Source of the DNA: Shigella phage JK55
DNA length: 64,000 nucleotides
Sequence record: MK962758
Direction: 5' to 3' (one strand)
A program made the position numbers and the translations under genes. Below are positions 23,909 through 30,323 of the stretch, in pieces (positions within the stretch are counted from its first letter, which is position 1; every line of letters begins with the position of its first letter). The notes under the pieces were generated by a model that was given only the letters and a program-made list of their open reading frames with translations, made no database searches and was not told the origin of the DNA.

Positions 23909-25324
23909 ATGAGCGAATTATTTAAACATGCGCACCTTCATGCAGGTCGAACTGAAAATGGTGCTGTAAACCATACTTCATCAATGTCTGCTCTAGTAAA
24001 CTTTTACAAAGCTGCTGGTTCAAGCCGTAGCAATGTAGAAATCTTACCAGACCTGTTCTACAAAGCTTTGCGTGAGGATGTTGATGTTGCAGTTCGTATT
24101 TTACTGCATATGCGAGATGTACGAGAAGGTATGGGTGAGCGTAAAGCCTTCAGAACTGTTTTGCTTCAAGCAATTGAAGACAAAGTTTTAGAGCCTACAC
24201 AGGTTCTTCGCATTATGGATAAGGTTGCAGAACTTGGTCGTTTTGATGACTTCAAAATCTTCGTAGGTACTCGTTTCGAGACGGATGCCTTCAAACATTT
24301 AGAGGCAGCATTACTAGACCCTGCAACAGCAGGTTTGGCAGCTAAGTGGTTACCACGAGTCAAACCACGTCATAAGCAGTTTGTAAAACGTTTCTGCAAG
24401 TTTGCCAACTTGAGTGAGAAAGAGTACCGCACACTGTTATCTGCACTGTCTGATACGGTTGAGCAAAAAATCTCTGCTAATGAGTTTGGTAAGATTGACT
24501 ACAGCAAGATTCCTTCACTCGCTGCTGCACGTTACCAAAAGCTCTTTAACCGTAAAGATGGAGAACGTTACAAAGCTTACATCGAATCACTCTCAAAGGG
24601 TGAGGCTAAGATTAACGCTGGTGCTGTTTATCCATACGATGTGATTAAGTCTATCAAGCATGGTAATGCAGATGTTGCCAATGAGCAGTGGAAAGCACTA
24701 CCAAACTGGATGGCAGAAGGTGAGAACATCTTGTGTATGACTGATGTTTCAAGCTCAATGTCTTGGGTGAATCTTGGTTCAATCACTGCTCTGGATATTG
24801 GTGTATCACTTGCCTTGTATGTAGCAGAACGCAATACAGGTTGCTTTAAGAATGAGTTAATGGTTTATTCAACAAACCCTCACTTCATCGAACTGAGTGG
24901 TGATTTACGAAACCGTCATCGTCAGGTGATGCGACACGTTGAATATGGCTCAACTAACTTACAAGCAGCTTTTGACCGCATTCTTGAAACAGGTAAAAGA
25001 AACAACTTGACTCAGAAAGATATGCCAAGTAAGCTTATCATCTTCTCCGATATGGAGTTCAATCAGGTTGATGGAGCTAACGGTCGTACAAACTTTGAAG
25101 CAATTCAGAGTAAGTACAAAAAAGCTGGATATGAGATGCCACAACTGGTATTCTGGTACTTAGCAAACCGTAATGGTACTTGCGAAGTGTCTGTTAAGGA
25201 TAACGGTGTAGCAATGGTATCTGGTTTCTCTCCAGCCACTTTAAAAGCTTTGCTTGGTGGTGAGAAGTTTGACCCAATCAGTGTAATGCTCAAAGCAGTA
25301 ATGATTGACCGTTACATCTGGTAA
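23909..25324 (+). CDS. vWA-domain protein with MIDAS motif (DUF2828-like or Ro60/TROVE-like; unresolved)
   Basis: MIDAS-type DxSxS motif (CMTDVSSSMS) at about residue 280; N-terminal TENGA motif; lies directly upstream of the tRNA array. Confidence 0.5.
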   Translation: MSELFKHAHLHAGRTENGAVNHTSSMSALVNFYKAAGSSRSNVEILPDLFYKALREDVDVAVRILLHMRDVREGMGERKAFRTVLLQAIEDKVLEPTQVLRIMDKVAELGRFDDFKIFVGTRFETDAFKHLEAALLDPATAGLAAKWLPRVKPRHKQFVKRFCKFANLSEKEYRTLLSALSDTVEQKISANEFGKIDYSKIPSLAAARYQKLFNRKDGERYKAYIESLSKGEAKINAGAVYPYDVIKSIKHGNADVANEQWKALPNWMAEGENILCMTDVSSSMSWVNLGSITALDIGVSLALYVAERNTGCFKNELMVYSTNPHFIELSGDLRNRHRQVMRHVEYGSTNLQAAFDRILETGKRNNLTQKDMPSKLIIFSDMEFNQVDGANGRTNFEAIQSKYKKAGYEMPQLVFWYLANRNGTCEVSVKDNGVAMVSGFSPATLKALLGGEKFDPISVMLKAVMIDRYIW

Positions 25325-25342
25325 AAAGTTTCAAAAAGGGTA

Positions 25343-25371
25343 TTGACAATGTGTTTGATACCCTTTAATAT
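25343..25371 (+). promoter_or_regulatory. sigma70-like promoter ahead of tRNA cluster (TTGACA-17-TAATAT)
   Basis: -35 25343-25348, -10 25366-25371. Confidence 0.55.
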
Positions 25372-25489
25372 GTTCTACATAGAAACGAAACGAGAGCTTT
25401 TCTAAGATACTGAAAAATATTTTAAAAAAGTTCTTGACAATCACTAAAAAATAATGTTAAAGTGGTTACATAGAGTTTGAAAAGTTTAT

Positions 25490-25566
25490 CTCTGTTTAGC
25501 TCAGCTTGGTAGAGCGTTCCGTTTGGGGCGGTAAGGCCGGAGGTTCAAGTCCTCCAACAGAGACCA
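25490..25566 (+). tRNA. tRNA-Pro (anticodon TGG)
   Basis: Hand-folded cloverleaf: 7-bp acceptor CTCTGTT/AACAGAG, D-arm GCTC..GAGC, anticodon loop TTTGGGG, T-arm GGAGGTTCAAGTCCTCC, CCA encoded. Confidence 0.7.
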
Positions 25567-25573
25567 AATTAAT

Positions 25574-25651
25574 GTTCCAGTAGACAAAATGGTATAGTCA
25601 CCACTCTTTCAAAGTGGATATCTGAGGGTTCAAATCCCTTCTGGAACGCCA
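25574..25651 (+). tRNA. tRNA-Glu (anticodon TTC)
   Basis: Acceptor GTTCCAG/CTGGAAC, anticodon stem CCACT/AGTGG with loop CTTTCAA, T-arm GAGGGTTCAAATCCCTT, CCA encoded. Confidence 0.6.
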
Positions 25652-25738
25652 GTTTTGACAGAAGACCAATTACAGCAAACTGAATCTACTCATCTGACAC
25701 GAAATCGGACAAAGAAGATATTTGGTCTGGTCATTAAG
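25652..25738 (+). ncRNA. repeated structured element, copy a (ACAGAAGACCAATTACAGCAA ... TTGGTCTGG)
   Basis: Shares 5' motif and covarying closing stem with copies b, c, d. Confidence 0.4.
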
Positions 25739-25741
25739 AAT

Positions 25742-25818
25742 TGCGGGTATAGAGAAAGGGCGTCTCACATGTCTCATTAGCATGGTATCGGCAGGTTCGA
25801 CTCCTGCACCCGCCTCCA
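25742..25818 (+). tRNA. tRNA-Met or Ile2 (anticodon CAT)
   Basis: Anticodon loop CTCATTA, T-arm GCAGGTTCGACTCCTGC, acceptor about 6/7 bp, CCA encoded. Confidence 0.55.
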
Positions 25819-25819
25819 A

Positions 25820-25892
25820 ATTTACAGAAGACCGTTTACAGCAATACTTATTAAATTTTTAGCGGAAAAATTGAAAGATGCGGTCTGGTAAT
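25820..25892 (+). ncRNA. repeated structured element, copy b (ACAGAAGACCGTTTACAGCAA ... CGGTCTGG)
   Basis: As above; closing stem AGACCG/CGGTCT. Confidence 0.4.
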
Positions 25893-25901
25893 ACTAAACA
25901 T

Positions 25902-25975
25902 GGTTAGGAAGCACATAAGGTATGTGCGGTCGCCTGTTAAGCGAATGGCACAGGGTTCGAATCCCTGACTAACCG
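25902..25975 (+). tRNA. tRNA-Asn (anticodon GTT)
   Basis: D-arm GCAC..GTGC, anticodon loop CTGTTAA, T-arm CAGGGTTCGAATCCCTG; no CCA encoded. Confidence 0.55.
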
Positions 25976-25986
25976 CAAAATTTAAA

Positions 25987-26075
25987 TGTGTCGTTATCCC
26001 GTAGATGGTAGCGGTGGGGACTGTAAATCCCTTGTCATTGAGACTCGGTAGGTTCGACTCCTACACGGCACACCA
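25987..26075 (+). tRNA. tRNA-Tyr (anticodon GTA), long variable arm
   Basis: Anticodon loop CTGTAAA, about 15-nt variable arm, T-arm GTAGGTTCGACTCCTAC, CCA encoded. Confidence 0.6.
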
Positions 26076-26080
26076 ATAAA

Positions 26081-26158
26081 GGTTATGTAGTTTAATTTGG
26101 TTAAAATACTCCCCTGTCACGGGAGATGATGAGGGTTCAAATCCCTTCGTAACCGCCA
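26081..26158 (+). tRNA. tRNA-Asp (anticodon GTC)
   Basis: Anticodon stem CTCCC/GGGAG with loop CTGTCAC, T-arm GAGGGTTCAAATCCCTT, CCA encoded. Confidence 0.6.
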
Positions 26159-26216
26159 ATTTTGAGAGGGCTATTTAGCCCCTCCCTTAAAGAGTTCTTA
26201 CGAGTATTCTTTAAAG

Positions 26217-26296
26217 GAGTAGAAGACCAAATACAGCAAGAATGTATGATATTTTCAAGCCAATTCAATTTTGAAAAAATTTAAAACTTGGTCTGG
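26217..26296 (+). ncRNA. repeated structured element, copy c (AGAAGACCAAATACAGCAA ... TTGGTCTGG)
   Basis: As above; closing stem AGACCAA/TTGGTCT. Confidence 0.4.
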
Positions 26297-26306
26297 CTCA
26301 ACAAAT

Positions 26307-26450
26307 TTACAGAAGACCGTTTACAGCAAAACTTAAACAATCTATTTCTCGGTAAAGAAAAGGCGAAGGTTCGATTCCTTCACTCGGCAGAGGTCGAGTT
26401 GGTGTAATGGTAGCACTTAAGATGATAAACAACGGTCTGGTAATTATCTT
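26307..26450 (+). ncRNA. repeated structured element, copy d, expanded; contains tRNA-like T-arm (GAAGGTTCGATTCCTTC) and D-arm-like segment
   Basis: Closing stem AGACCGTT/AACGGTCT; internal T-loop motif and TGGTGTAATGGTAGCAC D-arm-like segment, but no complete cloverleaf found. Confidence 0.35.
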
Positions 26451-26585
26451 TGTAGATAAGTTATTAAGCTTACCTGTGAGTATGCGACCACAAAGGGTGA
26501 AAGGGTAAATTCTAGATTTAAACCCAAAAAGTCACATCGCTACAGACCTTAAGCAAGTCTGGGTAGCTTATCTACAAAGATAATT
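26441..26585 (+). repeat. 19-bp perfect inverted repeat (TAATTATCTTTGTAGATAAG / CTTATCTACAAAGATAATT) enclosing 105 bp
   Basis: Arms at 26441-26460 and 26566-26584; candidate RNase III-type processing stem or miniature inverted-repeat element. Confidence 0.6.
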
Positions 26586-26589
26586 TAAT

Positions 26590-26665
26590 GGAAGTGTAGC
26601 AGAATGGTGATGCGGCAGACTTTTAATCTGACAGGCGATGGGTTCGAATCCCTCCACTTCTACCA
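26590..26665 (+). tRNA. tRNA-Lys (anticodon TTT)
   Basis: Acceptor GGAAGTG/CACTTCT, anticodon loop CTTTTAA, T-loop TTCGAAT with weak T-stem, CCA encoded. Confidence 0.5.
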
Positions 26666-26669
26666 AAAT

Positions 26670-26746
26670 GGTTCAGTCGCAGATAAGGTAATGCAAGGGT
26701 CTCATAAGCCCTATGAATGTGGGTTCGAATCCCATCTGAACCTCCA
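26670..26746 (+). tRNA. tRNA-Met or Ile2 (anticodon CAT), second copy
   Basis: Acceptor GGTTCAG/CTGAACC, anticodon stem AGGGT/GCCCT loop CTCATAA, T-arm GTGGGTTCGAATCCCAT, CCA encoded. Confidence 0.6.
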
Positions 26747-26748
26747 AT

Positions 26749-26823
26749 TGTGGGTTAGCATAAATGGTAATGCAAACGGCTGATAACCGTTAGAAGAGGG
26801 TTCGATACCCTCACCTACAACCA
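26749..26823 (+). tRNA. tRNA-Ile (anticodon GAT)
   Basis: Anticodon stem AACGG/CCGTT loop CTGATAA, T-arm GAGGGTTCGATACCCTC, CCA encoded. Confidence 0.6.
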
Positions 26824-26838
26824 AATTCAATAAAGTTG

Positions 26839-26867
26839 TTGACATTGAGATGTGACTACTTTATAGT
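26839..26867 (+). promoter_or_regulatory. sigma70-like promoter inside tRNA cluster (TTGACA-17-TATAGT)
   Basis: -35 26839-26844, -10 26862-26867; about 200 nt of non-tRNA sequence follows before the next tRNA. Confidence 0.55.
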
Positions 26868-27070
26868 ACCCTTAGTTTTCGTTGCGTAGCGTCTATTTTG
26901 CAAATTTAAAATAAATGCAAACGACAATGTTTTTCTGGCAGTAGCTTGATAGGCTAAACACCAGTGAGGTCTTCCAATCCCTCATCAAAGAATTTGGCGT
27001 ACTCGCCCACGGTATGATTAATAAGGTGGGCATCTTTAAGGGCTTTCTAAGAGAGTCTTTAAAGATTAAT

Positions 27071-27147
27071 GCACCCTTAGTTCAACTGGACAGAGCAAAT
27101 GACTTCTAATCATTGAGTTACAGGTTCGAATCCTGTAGGGTGCGCCA
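27071..27147 (+). tRNA. tRNA-Arg (anticodon TCT)
   Basis: Acceptor GCACCCT/AGGGTGC, anticodon stem AATGA/TCATT loop CTTCTAA, T-arm ACAGGTTCGAATCCTGT, CCA encoded. Confidence 0.65.
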
Positions 27148-27289
27148 ATTAGTTAGCAGATTACTTAGACGACCTAAGCGGGTCTTCCTGTAGGGAGGTG
27201 GTCTGTATCTCATGTTTTCCAGAACATGTAAATAATCTGAGAAGGGGCTTTACAGTGTTGAGATAATACGGTAAGTTTCGAATTATAGT

Positions 27290-27372
27290 ATGGGACGATG
27301 TTAAGACTCTAAGGCATGAGCAACGGCCTCCAAAACCGTTTCAAAGGGGTTCAACTCCTCCGTCCCATGCCA
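27290..27372 (+). tRNA. atypical tRNA-like gene (possible anticodon CCA in an enlarged 9-nt loop; isotype unresolved)
   Basis: Perfect acceptor ATGGGAC/GTCCCAT, T-arm AGGGGTTCAACTCCTCC, CCA encoded, but 83 nt long with about 7 extra nt between acceptor and anticodon arm; stem AACGG/CCGTT encloses CCTCCAAAA. Confidence 0.35.
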
Positions 27373-27385
27373 AAGTCTTATTAGT

Positions 27386-27473
27386 GGTAGGTAGCGGCTA
27401 ATGGTAGCCAAACTGTCTTGAAAACAGTTGCCACTGTAGAGATACGGTGAGGGTTCGACTCCTTTACTTACCG
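27386..27473 (+). tRNA. tRNA-Ser (anticodon TGA), long variable arm
   Basis: Anticodon stem ACTGT/ACAGT loop CTTGAAA, long variable arm, T-arm GAGGGTTCGACTCCTTT; no CCA encoded. Confidence 0.55.
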
Positions 27474-27730
27474 CCTAATAAGATTTAAAGCCAAGCTTCA
27501 TTCGGATGTTGCTTTGGTATCCCTCGTGTATTGTCGTACACACTAATAAAGCACCTAGTAGGTGTCACGGAGAAGAGATAATATCAAGCTCTCCAAAGGT
27601 TCTAGTCACCGGATTAAACAAGACTATGCAAAGACCTTTTTAGGTCTTTTTAGAGGGCTTCTAAGGTTATTACAGCTTGTTGTGGAACCTTGTTGCTTAG
27701 GTTCTTAGAAGTTCTCTAAAAAGGTTTAAT

Positions 27731-27808
27731 GGGAGATTGACGGTAATTGGTAAACCTATCTCGCTTAGAACGAGATGTTTGAGGGTTCGAATCCCTTGTC
27801 TCCTACCA
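27731..27808 (+). tRNA. tRNA with anticodon TAG (Leu by code) but short variable arm
   Basis: Anticodon stem TCTCG/CGAGA loop CTTAGAA, T-arm GAGGGTTCGAATCCCTT, CCA encoded; class-I length. Confidence 0.45.
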
Positions 27809-27815
27809 AATTAAT

Positions 27816-27891
27816 GCAGGTGTAGCAAAATGGTTATGCGGCTGACTCTTAATCAGTAAGACGATGGGTTCAATTCCCTCCACCTGTACCA
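27816..27891 (+). tRNA. tRNA-Lys (anticodon CTT)
   Basis: Acceptor GCAGGTG/CACCTGT, anticodon stem GCTGA/TCAGT loop CTCTTAA, T-loop TTCAATT, CCA encoded; paralog of tRNA-Lys(TTT). Confidence 0.5.
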
Positions 27892-27897
27892 AACAAT

Positions 27898-27973
27898 GGG
27901 GTCATAGTTTATATGGTTAAAATTCGAGTTTTGCAAACTTGGGAACTGAGTTCAATTCTCAGTGACTCCACCA
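27898..27973 (+). tRNA. tRNA-Ala (anticodon TGC)
   Basis: Anticodon stem CGAGT/ACTTG loop TTTGCAA, T-arm CTGAGTTCAATTCTCAG, CCA encoded. Confidence 0.5.
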
Positions 27974-27979
27974 ATTAGT

Positions 27980-28054
27980 GCATCCATAGTTTAAACGGGA
28001 AAATTACAGTCTTCCAAACTGAGGTTGAGGGTTCGATTCCCTCTGGATGCTCCA
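27980..28054 (+). tRNA. tRNA-Gly (anticodon TCC)
   Basis: Perfect acceptor GCATCCA/TGGATGC, anticodon loop CTTCCAA, T-arm GAGGGTTCGATTCCCTC, CCA encoded. Confidence 0.6.
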
Positions 28055-28060
28055 AACAAT

Positions 28061-28137
28061 GCTGCTTTCGTATAATTGGCTATTACACATCCCTTGTAAG
28101 GATGGAAATGCAGGTTCGAGTCCTGTGAGCAGCACCA
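28061..28137 (+). tRNA. tRNA-Thr (anticodon TGT)
   Basis: Anticodon stem CATCC/GGATG loop CTTGTAA, T-arm GCAGGTTCGAGTCCTGT, CCA encoded. Confidence 0.65.
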
Positions 28138-28140
28138 ATT

Positions 28141-28232
28141 CAGAGGTCAAGTGAAAGACCGCTGGTGTCAACTGAAGACCGTAACAAATTCCACGGAGTT
28201 GAGTTAGCGGCACAACTTCAGACCTCTTTCAC
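28141..28232 (+). ncRNA. structured non-tRNA element between tRNA-Thr and tRNA-Val (nested inverted repeats)
   Basis: AGAGGTC...GACCTCT outer inverted repeat, CTGAAG...CTTCAG inner repeat, contains the GAAGACCGT motif shared with copies a-d; no T-loop motif. Confidence 0.35.
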
Positions 28233-28307
28233 ACTCGCTTAGTTTATATGGTAAAACATCACCCTTACAAGATGAAGAAAAAGGTTCAAGTCCTTTAGTG
28301 AGTACCA
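28233..28307 (+). tRNA. tRNA-Val (anticodon TAC)
   Basis: Acceptor ACTCGCT/AGTGAGT, anticodon loop CTTACAA, T-arm AAGGTTCAAGTCCTT, CCA encoded. Confidence 0.5.
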
Positions 28308-28308
28308 T

Positions 28309-28386
28309 GTTCCAGTATCCCAATTGGCAGAGGATGCAAGCTCAAACCTTGTATTAGTGACGGTTCGAATCCGTCTTGGAACACCA
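28309..28386 (+). tRNA. tRNA with anticodon CAA (Leu by code) but short variable arm
   Basis: Acceptor GTTCCAG/TTGGAAC, anticodon stem GCAAG/CTTGT loop CTCAAAC, T-arm GACGGTTCGAATCCGTC, CCA encoded. Confidence 0.45.
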
Positions 28387-28405
28387 ATTTTAAGAGGCTA
28401 TTTAG

Positions 28406-28963
28406 ATGAGATATTTGAAGTATGCTTCATGGATTTTCTTAGCTTTACTAGAACCATTTGCAGCAACCCTAGCAGTCATCTTAGCACCTTTCGTAGTTCC
28501 ATTCTACAGTGAGAAGAAAGGGCATCTACCTTTTGGATTCAGATGGATGGAGACCTATGACAACCCGATTGATGGTGATAAAGGCCACGTTGAGAGATGG
28601 GCTAAGATTAGAAAGATTGGCAAGCTCGGTGTTTATATGCAGAGAGTTGGATGGCTCTGGAGAAACAAAGCTTATAACTTCTCTTACCATGTATTAGGAA
28701 GAGATGTAAAAGATGTTACTAAGTGGAAAGGTAATATCAACGTAAGTTCTGACCCTGAAGATAATCAGACAGGTTATCTCCTAATGTGGAACAACAATGC
28801 TTGGGGATTATTCGCTTTTATTCCGTCAATTAAAATCTTTGGTAAACAGTTTTACTGGAGAATTTATGTTGGATGGAAACTAAAAAGTGTTGTCCCAGAA
28901 GAAAGAGCATTCTCAAGGGAAAGAGTTATGTTGGCATTCTTTATTCATCCACTGAGAAAGTAA
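28406..28963 (+). CDS. hypothetical membrane protein embedded in tRNA cluster
   Basis: N-terminal hydrophobic segments (IFLALLEPFAATLAVILAPFVVPF); AAGAGG RBS 9 nt upstream. Confidence 0.55.
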   Translation: MRYLKYASWIFLALLEPFAATLAVILAPFVVPFYSEKKGHLPFGFRWMETYDNPIDGDKGHVERWAKIRKIGKLGVYMQRVGWLWRNKAYNFSYHVLGRDVKDVTKWKGNINVSSDPEDNQTGYLLMWNNNAWGLFAFIPSIKIFGKQFYWRIYVGWKLKSVVPEERAFSRERVMLAFFIHPLRK

Positions 28964-28971
28964 AGATTTAA

Positions 28972-29047
28972 AGGGGATTAGTTTACAAGGTTAAAACCTC
29001 GGTCTTTGAAATCGAAGAAGTTGGTTCAATTCCAACATCCCCCGCCA
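28972..29047 (+). tRNA. tRNA-Gln (anticodon TTG)
   Basis: Anticodon stem TCGGT/ATCGA loop CTTTGAA, T-arm GTTGGTTCAATTCCAAC, CCA encoded. Confidence 0.55.
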
Positions 29048-29049
29048 AT

Positions 29050-29128
29050 GCTCCATTACTCCAATTGGCAGAGAGGCCAGACTTAAAATCTGTGTTATGT
29101 ATCGGTTCGAATCCGATATGGAGTACCA
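29050..29128 (+). tRNA. tRNA with anticodon TAA (Leu by code) but short variable arm
   Basis: Acceptor GCTCCAT/ATGGAGT, anticodon loop CTTAAAA, T-arm ATCGGTTCGAATCCGAT, CCA encoded; D-arm paralogous to the CAA tRNA. Confidence 0.45.
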
Positions 29129-29133
29129 AATTT

Positions 29134-29209
29134 AGCGGTATAGCATAACTGGCAATGCAGCAGTCTCTGAAGCTGTCTTATTAAGGTTCAAATCCTTATG
29201 CCGCTGCCA
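29134..29209 (+). tRNA. tRNA-Gln (anticodon CTG)
   Basis: Acceptor AGCGGTA/TGCCGCT, anticodon loop CTCTGAA, T-arm TAAGGTTCAAATCCTTA, CCA encoded. Confidence 0.5.
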
Positions 29210-29240
29210 CTTCTAAGGGTTCTTACGAGAGTCCTTAAAT

Positions 29241-29316
29241 GTGGCCTTATCATAAATGGTAATGACCCATGCTGTGAACATGGTCTATACGGGTTCAAAT
29301 CCCGTAGGTCACCCCA
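29241..29316 (+). tRNA. tRNA-His (anticodon GTG)
   Basis: Anticodon stem CCATG/CATGG loop CTGTGAA, T-arm ACGGGTTCAAATCCCGT, CCA encoded. Confidence 0.65.
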
Positions 29317-29322
29317 ATTTAT

Positions 29323-29398
29323 AGTCCAAGTAGCTTATATGGTTAAAGCGCGTGTCTGAAAAACATGAGAAGAGGGTTCGAATCCCACTGGACTACCA
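29323..29398 (+). tRNA. tRNA-Phe (anticodon GAA)
   Basis: Anticodon stem CGTGT/ACATG loop CTGAAAA, T-loop TTCGAAT, CCA encoded. Confidence 0.55.
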
Positions 29399-29416
29399 AT
29401 TTCAAAGGTGCTTAAT

Positions 29417-30149
29417 GAAAGAGATGACAGAACAAGGTAAGGAGATTTTTAATCTCTTAAAAACCGGTAAAGGGTTTTCTAACCCACTTATTACTGGTGC
29501 AGCAGTTCTCGGTGGAACCGTAGCTGCTTCTACATCACTTGTAAGCTCTATTAGTTCTGTAACAGACCCTACAATGCAGGAGAAACTTGTTGCTGCTGGA
29601 CTTACAACAGTCCTTCTAAACAGCTTTACAACAAGCCTTACAAGCACTACAGCAACTACTAAAACTCTGACAGACTACGGTCAAAAGTCTATTGATGAGT
29701 TTTCATCACGTATGCAGGTAGCAAAGGGGTATTCCAATGTTATGGGTGCAGCAGGAGAGCAAGTTGGTTGTACACCATTCAGTGGTATCATGGGTGTTGC
29801 TACAGAGTATGGTCAAAAAGCTATTAACATGATGAACAGTACACTAGATAGTGTTAATGGTGTGTTAAGTGACTTACAAGATGCTATTGATAAGGGTCTT
29901 GATACTGTTTCTGATTTAGCTAATCAGGCTGTTAGTAAGATTAATGAAGGTATTTCAAAGATTACAGCTTATGCAGATGAAGTTGTGCAGATGATTGAAG
30001 AAGAAGCTTCCCTTATTGCAGAGTACCTTAAAACGAATATCAATGGGTTCTTAGCAGGTATCTTACCAGACTGGTTTGATGATGCCTGTAAAACTGGTGT
30101 GATTGACACTATTGCAACACCAGAAATGAAGAGCGCATTACAGAAATAA
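29417..30149 (+). CDS. hypothetical protein (Ser/Thr/Ala-rich N-terminal region) embedded in tRNA cluster
   Basis: Start moved to ATG 29417 (AAAGGTG upstream) because the track start 29352 lies inside tRNA-Phe. Confidence 0.5.
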
Positions 30150-30150
30150 T

Positions 30151-30243
30151 GGAAGATTAACCCTAAAAGGTAAGGGAGCAGTTTGCTAAACTGCCAGTAG
30201 CTGAGAAATCGGTGTACCAGTTCAAGTCTGGTATCTTCCTCCA
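30151..30243 (+). tRNA. tRNA-Ser (anticodon GCT), long variable arm
   Basis: Perfect acceptor GGAAGAT/ATCTTCC, anticodon stem GCAGT/ACTGC loop TTGCTAA, about 20-nt variable arm, T-arm ACCAGTTCAAGTCTGGT, CCA encoded. Confidence 0.7.
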
Positions 30244-30247
30244 ATTT

Positions 30248-30323
30248 GAATCCGTGACAGAAATGGATATGTGCCTGTCTGCAAAACAGGTTTATAAGGG
30301 TTCGAGTCCCTTCGGATTCTCCA
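30248..30323 (+). tRNA. tRNA-Cys (anticodon GCA)
   Basis: Perfect acceptor GAATCCG/CGGATTC, anticodon stem CCTGT/ACAGG loop CTGCAAA, T-arm AAGGGTTCGAGTCCCTT, CCA encoded. Confidence 0.7.

What the first reader, a model, noticed from the sequence alone, without database searches (positions are those of the whole stretch)
25652..26455. Family of four repeated structured elements interspersed among tRNA genes, with a covarying closing stem
Four copies (25652-25738, 25820-25892, 26217-26296, 26307-26450) start with ACAGAAGACC-NNN-TACAGCAA and end with GGTCTGG. The nucleotides extending the AGACC/GGTCT stem covary: CAA/TTG in copies a and c, CG/CG in b, CGTT/AACG in d. Loops range from about 50 to 130 nt. 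Copy d contains a canonical T-arm (GAAGGTTCGATTCCTTC) and a D-arm-like segment but no complete cloverleaf, suggesting a tRNA-like module. A stable-RNA family co-transcribed with tRNAs would be consistent with small structured RNAs, processing signals, or tRNA-like RNAs that recruit host factors.
Basis: seen in the sequence. Interest (0 to 1): 0.7.

Follow-up and report, generated by a model that had tools for sequence, protein, structure and literature searches.

The report
Phage Y-RNA-like partners of Ro60-like protein
Four small structured RNAs tucked between the tRNA genes of this Felix O1-like phage look like the missing RNA partners ("Y RNAs", one of them a tRNA mimic) of the Ro60-like protein encoded just upstream, and the same RNA signature sits beside that protein family in phages of very different bacteria.

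Summary
The block AGAAGACC-NNN-TACAGCAA occurs four times with no mismatch, all on the + strand, at 25660, 25826, 26221 and 26311. Each copy is closed by a complementary ...GGTCTG.

Each element has four parts:
- an outer 4-bp helix
- an AGA/G internal loop
- a 7-8 bp inner helix
- an invariant single-stranded ACAGCAA

Copy d also carries a tRNA-like module in the order variable arm, T arm, closed acceptor hairpin, D arm. That is the architecture of bacterial YrlA Y RNAs.

The same signature lies next to DUF2828 genes on the gene strand in Klebsiella, Vibrio, Mycobacterium, Listeria, Staphylococcus, Bacillus, Enterococcus, Campylobacter and Sinorhizobium phages. In 67 metagenomic viral loci it gave 54 hits on the gene strand and none on the other. 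All seven helix pairs covary.

No Rfam family covers the elements, and the canonical Ro-binding motif GNCGAA(N)G is absent from the expected position.

Best reading: these are Y-RNA analogues of a divergent phage Ro60 family. I rate this a new variant of a known kind. Expression and protein binding are untested here.

The parts
23909..25324 (+). Gene for a Ro60-like protein (471 aa): HEAT-repeat ring plus a vWA domain with the MIDAS residues conserved. It is the proposed protein partner of the elements.
25343..25463 (+). Two sigma-70-like promoter matches (25343-25371 and 25434-25463) between the Ro60-like gene and the first tRNA. They are the likely start of the transcription unit that carries elements a-d.
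   Evidence: Consensus scan: TTGACA-17-TAATAT and TTGACA-18-TAAAGT, 10 of 12 each. These are consensus matches only.
25656..25733 (+). Element a, a short YrlB-like type. Outer helix 25656-25659/25730-25733; loop AGA 25660-25662 opposite G 25729; inner helix 25663-25669/25722-25728; ACAGCAA 25672-25678. It fills the spacer between tRNA-Glu and tRNA-Met.
25822..25891 (+). Element b, short type. Outer helix 25822-25825/25888-25891; inner helix 25829-25835/25880-25886 (one G-U pair); ACAGCAA 25838-25844. It fills the spacer between tRNA-Met and tRNA-Asn.
26217..26299 (+). Element c, short type. Outer helix 26217-26220/26296-26299; inner helix 26224-26230/26288-26294; ACAGCAA 26233-26239. It is present in only some relatives.
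   Evidence: presence or absence among Ounavirinae
26307..26443 (+). Element d, the YrlA-like type. Outer helix 26307-26310/26440-26443; inner helix 26314-26321/26431-26438; ACAGCAA 26323-26329; 4-bp helix 26332-26335/26418-26421; variable hairpin about 26345-26360; T arm 26365-26381; closed acceptor-like hairpin 26382-26399; D arm 26402-26416.
   Evidence: The MFE fold gives this architecture. An RNAalifold consensus over 13 homologues from different phage groups has 23 pairs, 20 of them with compensatory changes. ARAGORN and the Rfam tRNA model do not call it a tRNA.

Best explanation
Elements a-d are genes for small non-coding RNAs that work like Y RNAs. Each is a modular RNA whose paired ends form the docking site for the phage's own Ro60-like protein (23909-25324). 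The variable middle part would carry a second function.

Shown by computation:
- The RNAs share a basal module: a bulged helix with a purine-rich 5' strand, an invariant single-stranded ACAGCAA immediately 3' of that strand, and a conserved G after the 3' strand.
- This module travels with DUF2828/DUF7788 Ro60-fold genes across phages of four bacterial phyla, always on the gene's strand.
- The helix sequence covaries freely.
- One RNA per genome usually carries a tRNA-shaped module (variable arm, T arm, closed acceptor, D arm), as in bacterial YrlA.

Inferred:
- The RNAs are transcribed with the tRNAs from the promoters at about 25343-25463.
- They are released by the enzymes that trim the flanking tRNAs: RNase P at the 5' end of the downstream tRNA, and 3' processing of the upstream one.
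- The Ro60-like protein binds the helix-ACAGCAA module.
- The apical modules tether or decoy other factors. The tRNA-like module of d would attract enzymes or nucleases that recognise the tRNA elbow.
- The resulting RNP serves RNA quality control or counter-defence during infection. The orthologous protein of phage Bas63 (gp130) was reported to counter the Ppl defence system.
For: - Adjacency and strand in the window: the inner helix of element a begins 339 nt after the stop codon of the Ro60-like gene, on the same strand.
- The same RNA signature lies next to the homologous gene in Moogle, SUSP1, Sf13, Klebsiella FBKp34, KVP40, mycobacteriophages Krypton555 and JoeDirt, Listeria List-36 and cka15, Campylobacter F361, Enterococcus VRE9_1, Staphylococcus CoN_Ph11, Bacillus Tsamsa and Sinorhizobium phiM12.
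- Independent test on 67 metagenomic viral loci whose proteins are 38-47% identical: 54 strict hits on the gene strand and 0 on the other. Shuffled loci gave 0-6 hits on both strands together.
- With the first motif base left free, 54 of 67 loci carry a hit on the gene strand against 7 on the opposite strand.
- Covariation: 33 elements, 7 pairs, 99.6% of cells paired, all 7 pairs changed on both sides; slid controls give 29-41% paired.
- The tRNA-like module covaries: the acceptor-like hairpin differs completely in sequence between genera yet stays paired.
- The module of the mycobacteriophage counterpart matches Rfam YrlA model positions 24-84 only, at 38.3 bits.
- Literature: YrlA has the order V-T-AS-D and lies within 4 kb of Ro60 on the same strand (PMC4201824).
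- Literature: Bas63 gp130 is Ro60-like and counters Ppl. The authors guessed that some 'tRNA genes' are Y RNAs (10.1101/2024.10.10.617714).
- Literature: in Listeria phage CKA15, very abundant non-coding transcripts arise within 2 kb upstream of the homologous gene (PMC12282133).
Against: - There are no expression data for this phage, and no binding data for any member of this protein family.
- The canonical Ro60-binding motifs are absent from the expected position. GNCGAA(N)G occurs once, inside the T stem of d; GGUCCGA does not occur.
- Rfam Y_RNA and YrlA models do not match the window elements even at E<=10.
- The protein is related to Ro60 only at the level of fold. No sequence or profile match to PDB Ro60 was found, and there is no Pfam TROVE match.
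- The 3' partners in the covariation alignment were chosen by complementarity, which inflates the paired percentage. The shuffle and strand controls address this only indirectly.
- Two DUF2828 loci (Aeromonas phiWae14, Serratia BF) showed no element within 4 kb.
- For the Listeria phage, the published coordinates of one abundant RNA (26,236-26,727) are not those of the ACAGCAA elements.
Confidence: 0.78

Rival explanations
1. The elements are structured spacers of the tRNA precursor. They would be hairpins that guide RNase III, RNase E or RNase P processing or protect tRNA ends, with no link to the Ro60-like protein.
For: In the window they exactly fill three tRNA spacers. In several other phages they also abut tRNA genes: FBKp34, Tsamsa, phiM12, VRE9_1.
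Against: In mycobacteriophages Krypton555 and JoeDirt and in Staphylococcus phage CoN_Ph11, the elements sit directly after the Ro60-like gene with no adjacent tRNA gene. In the metagenomic loci they cluster within a few hundred nt of the gene. An invariant single-stranded heptamer conserved across four host phyla is not expected of host-specific RNase sites. Most tRNA spacers in the window are 1-11 nt and carry no such element.
Confidence: 0.07
2. They are structured non-coding RNAs that act on their own, for example as tRNA decoys for host anticodon or acceptor nucleases or as regulatory sRNAs. The neighbouring Ro60-like gene would be linked only by shared regulation.
For: The tRNA-like module of d and its counterparts. 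Phage tRNA arrays are known counter-measures to tRNA-cleaving defences (established knowledge; for example PMC13096335 listed).
Against: The part conserved in all copies is not the tRNA-like module, which three of the four copies lack. It is the basal helix plus ACAGCAA, which looks like a protein-docking site. Co-occurrence with one protein family on the same strand is very tight.
Confidence: 0.1
3. They are DNA-level repeats: miniature transposable elements with inverted ends, recombination or homing-endonuclease sites, or promoter modules (TTGACA/TTTACA lies at the 5' edge).
For: Copies share mainly their ends. Copy number varies from 1 to 4 among close relatives. A weak promoter-like match overlaps b (25821-25848).
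Against: The ends covary rather than being conserved, which fits RNA pairing and not recognition of fixed terminal repeats. The strand bias relative to the gene is absolute, 54 to 0. The asymmetric ACAGCAA occurs at one end only. The upstream TTGACA-like hexamer is not found in other lineages.
Confidence: 0.03

Closest known systems
Bacterial Y RNAs YrlA and YrlB with the Ro60 orthologue Rsr (Salmonella Typhimurium, Mycobacterium smegmatis; Chen et al. 2014, PMC4201824; YrlA structure, bioRxiv 10.1101/312249)
   Same: They are encoded next to, and on the same strand as, a Ro60-fold gene. There are several RNAs per locus. The 5' and 3' ends pair into a stem next to a conserved 5'-side motif. 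One RNA carries a tRNA-like domain in the order V, T, closed acceptor stem, D. The D loop AAUGGUA of copy d is identical to that of Salmonella YrlA.
   Different: The protein-side motif is ACAGCAA after a purine-rich helix strand, not GNCGAA(N)G. The Rfam YrlA model does not match the window, and in the mycobacteriophage counterpart it matches only the tRNA-like core. The partner protein is DUF2828/DUF7788, not a TROVE-domain protein by sequence. The genes are embedded in a tRNA array instead of an rsr-rtcBA operon.
Thermus phage phiLo Ro60 with Yrl1 and Yrl2 (PMC12135203)
   Different: The phiLo RNAs were identified by the CGAA motif in a bulge, and its protein is a recognisable TROVE protein. 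No tRNA-array context is reported.
Metazoan Y RNAs with Ro60
   Different: No sequence similarity of the binding site (GGUCCGA absent), no tRNA-like module, and RNA polymerase III genes.
Phage T4 stable 'species 1' and 'species 2' RNAs (rnaC, rnaD) in the tRNA gene cluster (own knowledge, not checked here)
   Same: Small stable RNAs of unknown function, co-transcribed with phage tRNAs and released by tRNA-processing enzymes.
   Different: No known Ro60-like partner. No sequence comparison was made here.
Circularly permuted tRNA genes (Cyanidioschyzon merolae) and tRNA-like decoys (own knowledge)
   Same: In copy d, the 3' half of a tRNA-like fold precedes the 5' half.
   Different: In copy d the acceptor end is closed by a 4-nt loop and there is no anticodon loop. 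No bulge-helix-bulge motif is present. It is not a precursor of a functional tRNA.

Membership tests
Y RNA (broad class: small RNA partner of a Ro60 protein) | Encoded close to, and on the same strand as, a Ro60 orthologue (bacterial and phage Y RNAs lie within about 4 kb; PMC4201824) | tested here: met
   Elements lie 339-1120 nt downstream of the Ro60-fold gene, on the same strand. In 67 other loci, 54 hits lie on the gene strand and 0 on the other.
Y RNA (broad class: small RNA partner of a Ro60 protein) | 5' and 3' ends pair into a stem that holds the protein-binding site; modular build with a variable internal part; length about 80-220 nt | tested here: met
   Terminal helices are supported by covariation. 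Element lengths are 70-137 nt. The shortest copies are a little below the quoted range.
Y RNA (broad class: small RNA partner of a Ro60 protein) | Physical association with the Ro60 protein | not testable with these tools
   Needs RIP/CLIP or gel-shift assays.
Y RNA (broad class: small RNA partner of a Ro60 protein) | Conserved Ro60-binding sequence near the 5' end (GGUCCGA in animals; GNCGAA(N)G in bacteria) | tested here: not met
   A regular-expression scan of 25641-26460 finds GNCGAA(N)G only at 26362, inside the T stem of d. GGUCCGA is absent. A different invariant motif, ACAGCAA, occupies the corresponding place.
YrlA (Rfam RF02553) | Score at or above the family's gathering threshold (69 bits) | tested here: not met
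   No YrlA match in the window at gathering level, nor at E<=10. The mycobacteriophage Krypton555 counterpart scores 38.3 bits over model positions 24-84 only.
YrlA (architecture as defined by Chen et al. 2014) | tRNA-like domain ordered V arm, T arm, closed acceptor-like stem, D arm, enclosed by the terminal stem, with conserved T-loop and D-loop residues | tested here: met
   Copy d: T loop UUCGAUU, D loop AAUGGUA, U8-like U. The consensus over 13 homologues has 20 of 23 pairs with compensatory changes.
tRNA | Complete cloverleaf with open acceptor end and anticodon loop | tested here: not met
   ARAGORN and Rfam tRNA and 23 tRNAs in the window but none in a-d. The best tRNA-model score on d is 15 bits, and that match is truncated.
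Ro60 / TROVE protein family (for the partner protein) | Sequence match to the Pfam TROVE domain or to Ro60 proteins | tested here: not met
   Only DUF2828 and DUF7788 match, at E up to 10. No Ro60 was found in a sequence or profile search of the PDB.
Ro60 / TROVE protein family (for the partner protein) | Ro60 fold: alpha-helical repeat ring plus a C-terminal vWA domain with MIDAS | tested here: met

The most novel reading that the evidence does not exclude
These RNAs and the DUF2828/DUF7788 protein form a distinct, phage-borne Ro60-like RNP class with its own RNA recognition code (bulged purine-rich helix plus ACAGCAA). It would be spread through phages of Gram-negative, Gram-positive, mycobacterial and Campylobacter hosts. 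Its RNAs, matured as 'extra cistrons' of tRNA operons, would include a tRNA mimic that lets the RNP intercept or neutralise host immune nucleases. That would explain how Bas63 gp130 defeats the Ppl system.
Probability: 0.3. Interest if true: 0.85.

Novelty: new variant of a known kind. Interest (0 to 1): 0.68.

Why it matters
Ro60-like 'RNA-binding proteins' (PHROG 850) are annotated in hundreds of phage genomes: 709 of about 50,700 records had a match here. No RNA partner is known for them. Two recent papers could only guess that some nearby RNAs might be Y RNAs.

A simple, searchable RNA signature now points to the candidate partners. It predicts the protein's recognition site. It explains small 'hypothetical ORFs' and odd spacers in many phage tRNA regions. 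It also makes the reported anti-defence role of the Bas63 protein testable at the RNA level.

The result further suggests that the tRNA-mimic module of Y RNAs is older and more portable than the Ro-binding module. The module is shared, while the docking site differs.

Tried and rejected
- Rfam: gathering-level scans of the window and of ten related loci gave only tRNAs. Scans at E<=10 of the element region gave no Y RNA family.
- Sequence-level link of the protein to Ro60: phmmer, and a 36-sequence profile, against PDB sequences found nothing. Only fold comparison worked.
- A compact covariance model was built from 67 non-Ounavirinae core sequences with the interior cut out (model R1). I meant it as a held-out test. 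It failed by design. With 40-110 nt interiors, the local-end state skips the ACAGCAA motif, so the window search returned only unrelated short hairpins at E 0.2-10. I discarded it and used the explicit pattern with shuffle and opposite-strand controls instead.
- Thermodynamic stability of single copies is not distinctive (z -1.4 to -1.8).
- I tried to match the Listeria phage CKA15 RNA-seq peaks to the ACAGCAA elements. The one published interval (26,236-26,727) is a different, larger non-coding region. The coordinates of the other two peaks are not in the text, so the match stays unproven.
- Literature searches for DUF2828, for Bas63 with Ro60, and for phage Y RNA with tRNA arrays found no description of these elements.
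- I considered and rejected permuted-tRNA precursor, MITE-like repeat, promoter module and cis-regulatory leader (see rival explanations).

Full report
**What the window is.** The region 25300-27300 is 95-98% identical to many Felix O1-like phages (Felixounavirus, Ounavirinae). It lies at the start of a 25-gene tRNA array, 25490-30323, all on the + strand.

**The observation.** The block AGAAGACC-NNN-TACAGCAA occurs with no mismatch at 25660, 25826, 26221 and 26311, all on the + strand. With three mismatches allowed, chance expects 0.65 matches.

Each copy ends in GGTCTGG, and the bases that extend the AGACC/GGTCT pairing differ between copies in a compensating way. Folding adds detail:
- The inner helix is 7-8 bp.
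- Outside it lies an asymmetric internal loop, 5' AGA opposite 3' G.
- Beyond that is an outer 4-bp helix that also covaries: UGAC/GUCA in a, UUAC/GUAA in b and d, GAGU/GCUC in c.
- Immediately 3' of the inner helix's 5' strand comes an unpaired ACAGCAA.

Copy c starts GTAG, not ACAG.

Copy d folds on its own into a four-way junction with these parts:
- a variable hairpin
- a canonical T arm (GAAGG-UUCGAUU-CCUUC)
- a 7-bp acceptor-like helix closed by a 4-nt loop
- a D arm (GUGU-AAUGGUA-GCAC)

This is a tRNA shape opened at the anticodon end and closed at the acceptor end. ARAGORN and the Rfam tRNA model do not call it a tRNA.

**The neighbouring protein.**
It has no TROVE match.
- Homologues in mycobacteriophages are annotated 'Ro-like RNA binding protein'.
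- Sequence and profile searches of the PDB find no Ro60.
- An AlphaFold2 model built from 36 homologues has pLDDT 88.6.
- With Foldseek, the 11 best PDB matches are all full-length Ro60.

The protein therefore has the Ro60 fold. Ro60 proteins are the partners of Y RNAs. In bacteria, at least one Y RNA per species (YrlA) carries a tRNA-like domain ordered V, T, closed acceptor stem, D, and the Y RNA genes lie within 4 kb of the Ro60 gene on the same strand (PMC4201824; structure paper). Copy d has exactly that architecture. Its D loop is even identical to that of Salmonella YrlA.

**Comparative test.** I fetched the DNA around homologues of the protein from distant phages. I scanned it for a helix followed by ACAGCAA.

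The signature appears beside the gene, on its strand, in these phages:
- Moogle, SUSP1 and Sf13
- Klebsiella FBKp34: three or four copies, one with a T / closed-acceptor / D module
- KVP40
- mycobacteriophages Krypton555 and JoeDirt: three copies each directly after the gene, the middle one tRNA-like
- Listeria List-36 and cka15: three copies directly before the gene, behind a TTGACA promoter
- Campylobacter F361
- Enterococcus VRE9_1
- Staphylococcus CoN_Ph11: three tandem copies, annotated as tiny ORFs
- Bacillus Tsamsa
- Sinorhizobium phiM12

Two loci (Aeromonas phiWae14, Serratia BF) had none within 4 kb.

The consensus is 5'-W-R-G-R-NNNN-(N1-2)-ACAGCAA ... NNNN-Y-C-Y-W-G-3'.

In an alignment of 33 cores, 99.6% of helix cells pair. 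All seven pairs change on both sides. Sliding the partner strand drops pairing to 29-41%. Because the 3' partners were picked by complementarity, this count is biased, so I ran three controls:
- The strict pattern hits the window four times (a-d only), against 0.1 expected.
- In 67 further viral metagenome loci with proteins 38-47% identical, it hits 54 times on the gene strand and never on the other. Shuffles gave 0-6 on both strands together, and most hits lie within about 800 nt of the gene.
- With the first motif base left free, 54 of 67 loci carry a hit on the gene strand against 7 on the opposite strand.

An independent RNAalifold consensus of 13 long elements recovers the basal helix, T arm, closed acceptor helix and D arm. 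Twenty of its 23 pairs show compensatory changes.

**Relation to known families.**
- No Rfam family covers the elements.
- The Krypton555 long element matches Rfam YrlA only over model positions 24-84, the tRNA-like core, at 38.3 bits against a threshold of 69.
- The bacterial Ro-binding motif GNCGAA(N)G is absent from the 5' region of a-d.

So the effector module resembles YrlA, while the presumed protein-docking module is different. That fits a partner protein related to Ro60 only by fold. The 'YUAY' that begins the V loop of YrlA may correspond to the UUAC of UUACAGCAA. This is my inference only.

**Prior literature.**
- The PhageMaP preprint found that Bas63 gp130, the orthologue in a close relative, resembles Ro60 and counters the Ppl defence system. 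It speculated that 'some tRNA genes are possibly Y RNAs'.
- A multi-omics study of Listeria phage CKA15 found three extremely abundant non-coding transcripts within 2 kb upstream of the homologous, virion-associated protein. It raised Y RNAs as one possibility.
- Neither paper identified the elements or the motif.
- Searches for DUF2828 and related terms found nothing else.
- The one CKA15 interval given in that paper's text is not where the ACAGCAA elements lie.

**Mechanism.**
- Shown: the anatomy, the covariation, and the co-occurrence and strand linkage with a Ro60-fold gene.
- Inferred: co-transcription with tRNAs from the promoter-like sites at 25343-25463.
- Inferred: release by tRNA-processing enzymes, since a and b fill the spacers between tRNA genes exactly.
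- Inferred: docking of the protein on the bulged helix and ACAGCAA.
- Inferred: tethering or decoy functions of the variable modules, and a role in RNA quality control or counter-defence.

**Rivals.**
- Pure tRNA-processing hairpins are unlikely, because the elements follow the protein gene where no tRNA gene is near.
- DNA-level repeats are unlikely, because the ends covary and the strand bias is absolute.
- Autonomous decoy RNAs remain possible.

**Verdict.** This is a real feature. It is best described as Y-RNA analogues, one of them a tRNA mimic, of a divergent phage Ro60 family, carrying a previously undescribed conserved docking motif. It is a new variant of a known kind. Expression and binding remain to be shown.

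Noticed in passing
window 26868-27070 (+); tag-like ORF 26917-26949: Downstream of a near-consensus promoter (TTGACA-17-TATAGT, 26839-26867) lies a structured region (dG -58.6, z -3.9). It contains GCA AAC GAC AAT GTT TTT CTG GCA GTA GCT TGA = ANDNVFLAVA*, very like the E. coli SsrA tag ANDENYALAA. The reading frame is conserved in all 16 Ounavirinae loci checked, with synonymous changes. Rfam gives only sub-threshold tmRNA hits (30.8 and 15.9 bits), ARAGORN finds no tmRNA, and I saw no T arm. It may be a tmRNA-like gene lacking a standard tRNA-like domain.
   Followed up: partly
window 26442-26585 (+): A 145-nt structure closed by a helix of about 24 bp (dG -46.3, z -5.1), directly after element d. 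It is conserved in Moogle, SUSP1 and Sf13, with a few compensatory changes in the long stem. It contains ACAGACCUUAAGCAAGUCUGG, which looks like a collapsed copy of the a-d end motifs. Function unknown.
   Followed up: partly
L004 (Klebsiella phage FBKp34) 6003-6116: A 114-nt 'tRNA-Asp' (Rfam tRNA 47.7 bits) carries an insertion between the D arm and the anticodon arm: ACTTCT-tag-AGAAGT-TT-TACAGCA. This is the helix-plus-motif signature as a hairpin inside an otherwise normal tRNA.
   Followed up: no
L097 (Listeria phage cka15) about 1246-1737 = record 26,236-26,727: According to PMC12282133, this non-coding region accounts for up to two thirds of phage transcripts late in infection. It lies behind a TTGACA promoter, between tRNA-Pro and the ACAGCAA elements. 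It has no strict ACAGCAA element, and the equivalent List-36 locus has no Rfam match.
   Followed up: partly
L008 6810-8021; L015 2256-3515 and 8811 onward: RNA-repair genes lie near the Ro60-like gene in other phages: RtcB-type 'tRNA splicing ligase' in Listeria List-36, and RNA ligase plus a CCA-adding/phosphodiesterase enzyme in Serratia BF. This echoes the rsr-yrlBA-rtcBA operon of Salmonella.
   Followed up: no
L073 7192-7315: One metagenomic element has the tRNA-like parts in a different order (closed hairpin, D arm, anticodon-like arm, T arm) inside the same ACAGCAA basal module. The tRNA mimic may have been acquired more than once.
   Followed up: no
window 27292-27366 (+) and the spacers 27148-27385, 27476-27730, 28138-28232: Further long spacers in the tRNA array. 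One holds a weak tRNA-Sec-like match (23 bits, E 0.36), perhaps a decayed tRNA. None has the ACAGCAA signature.
   Followed up: no
short elements, e.g. L001 2505-2566, L002 2450-2508, L004 5620-5670: Several short elements from different genera share a small apical hairpin with a 7-nt loop close to (A/G/U)YGCAUA. This may be a second conserved module of the short class. The window's copy a has ACGAAAU there instead.
   Followed up: no
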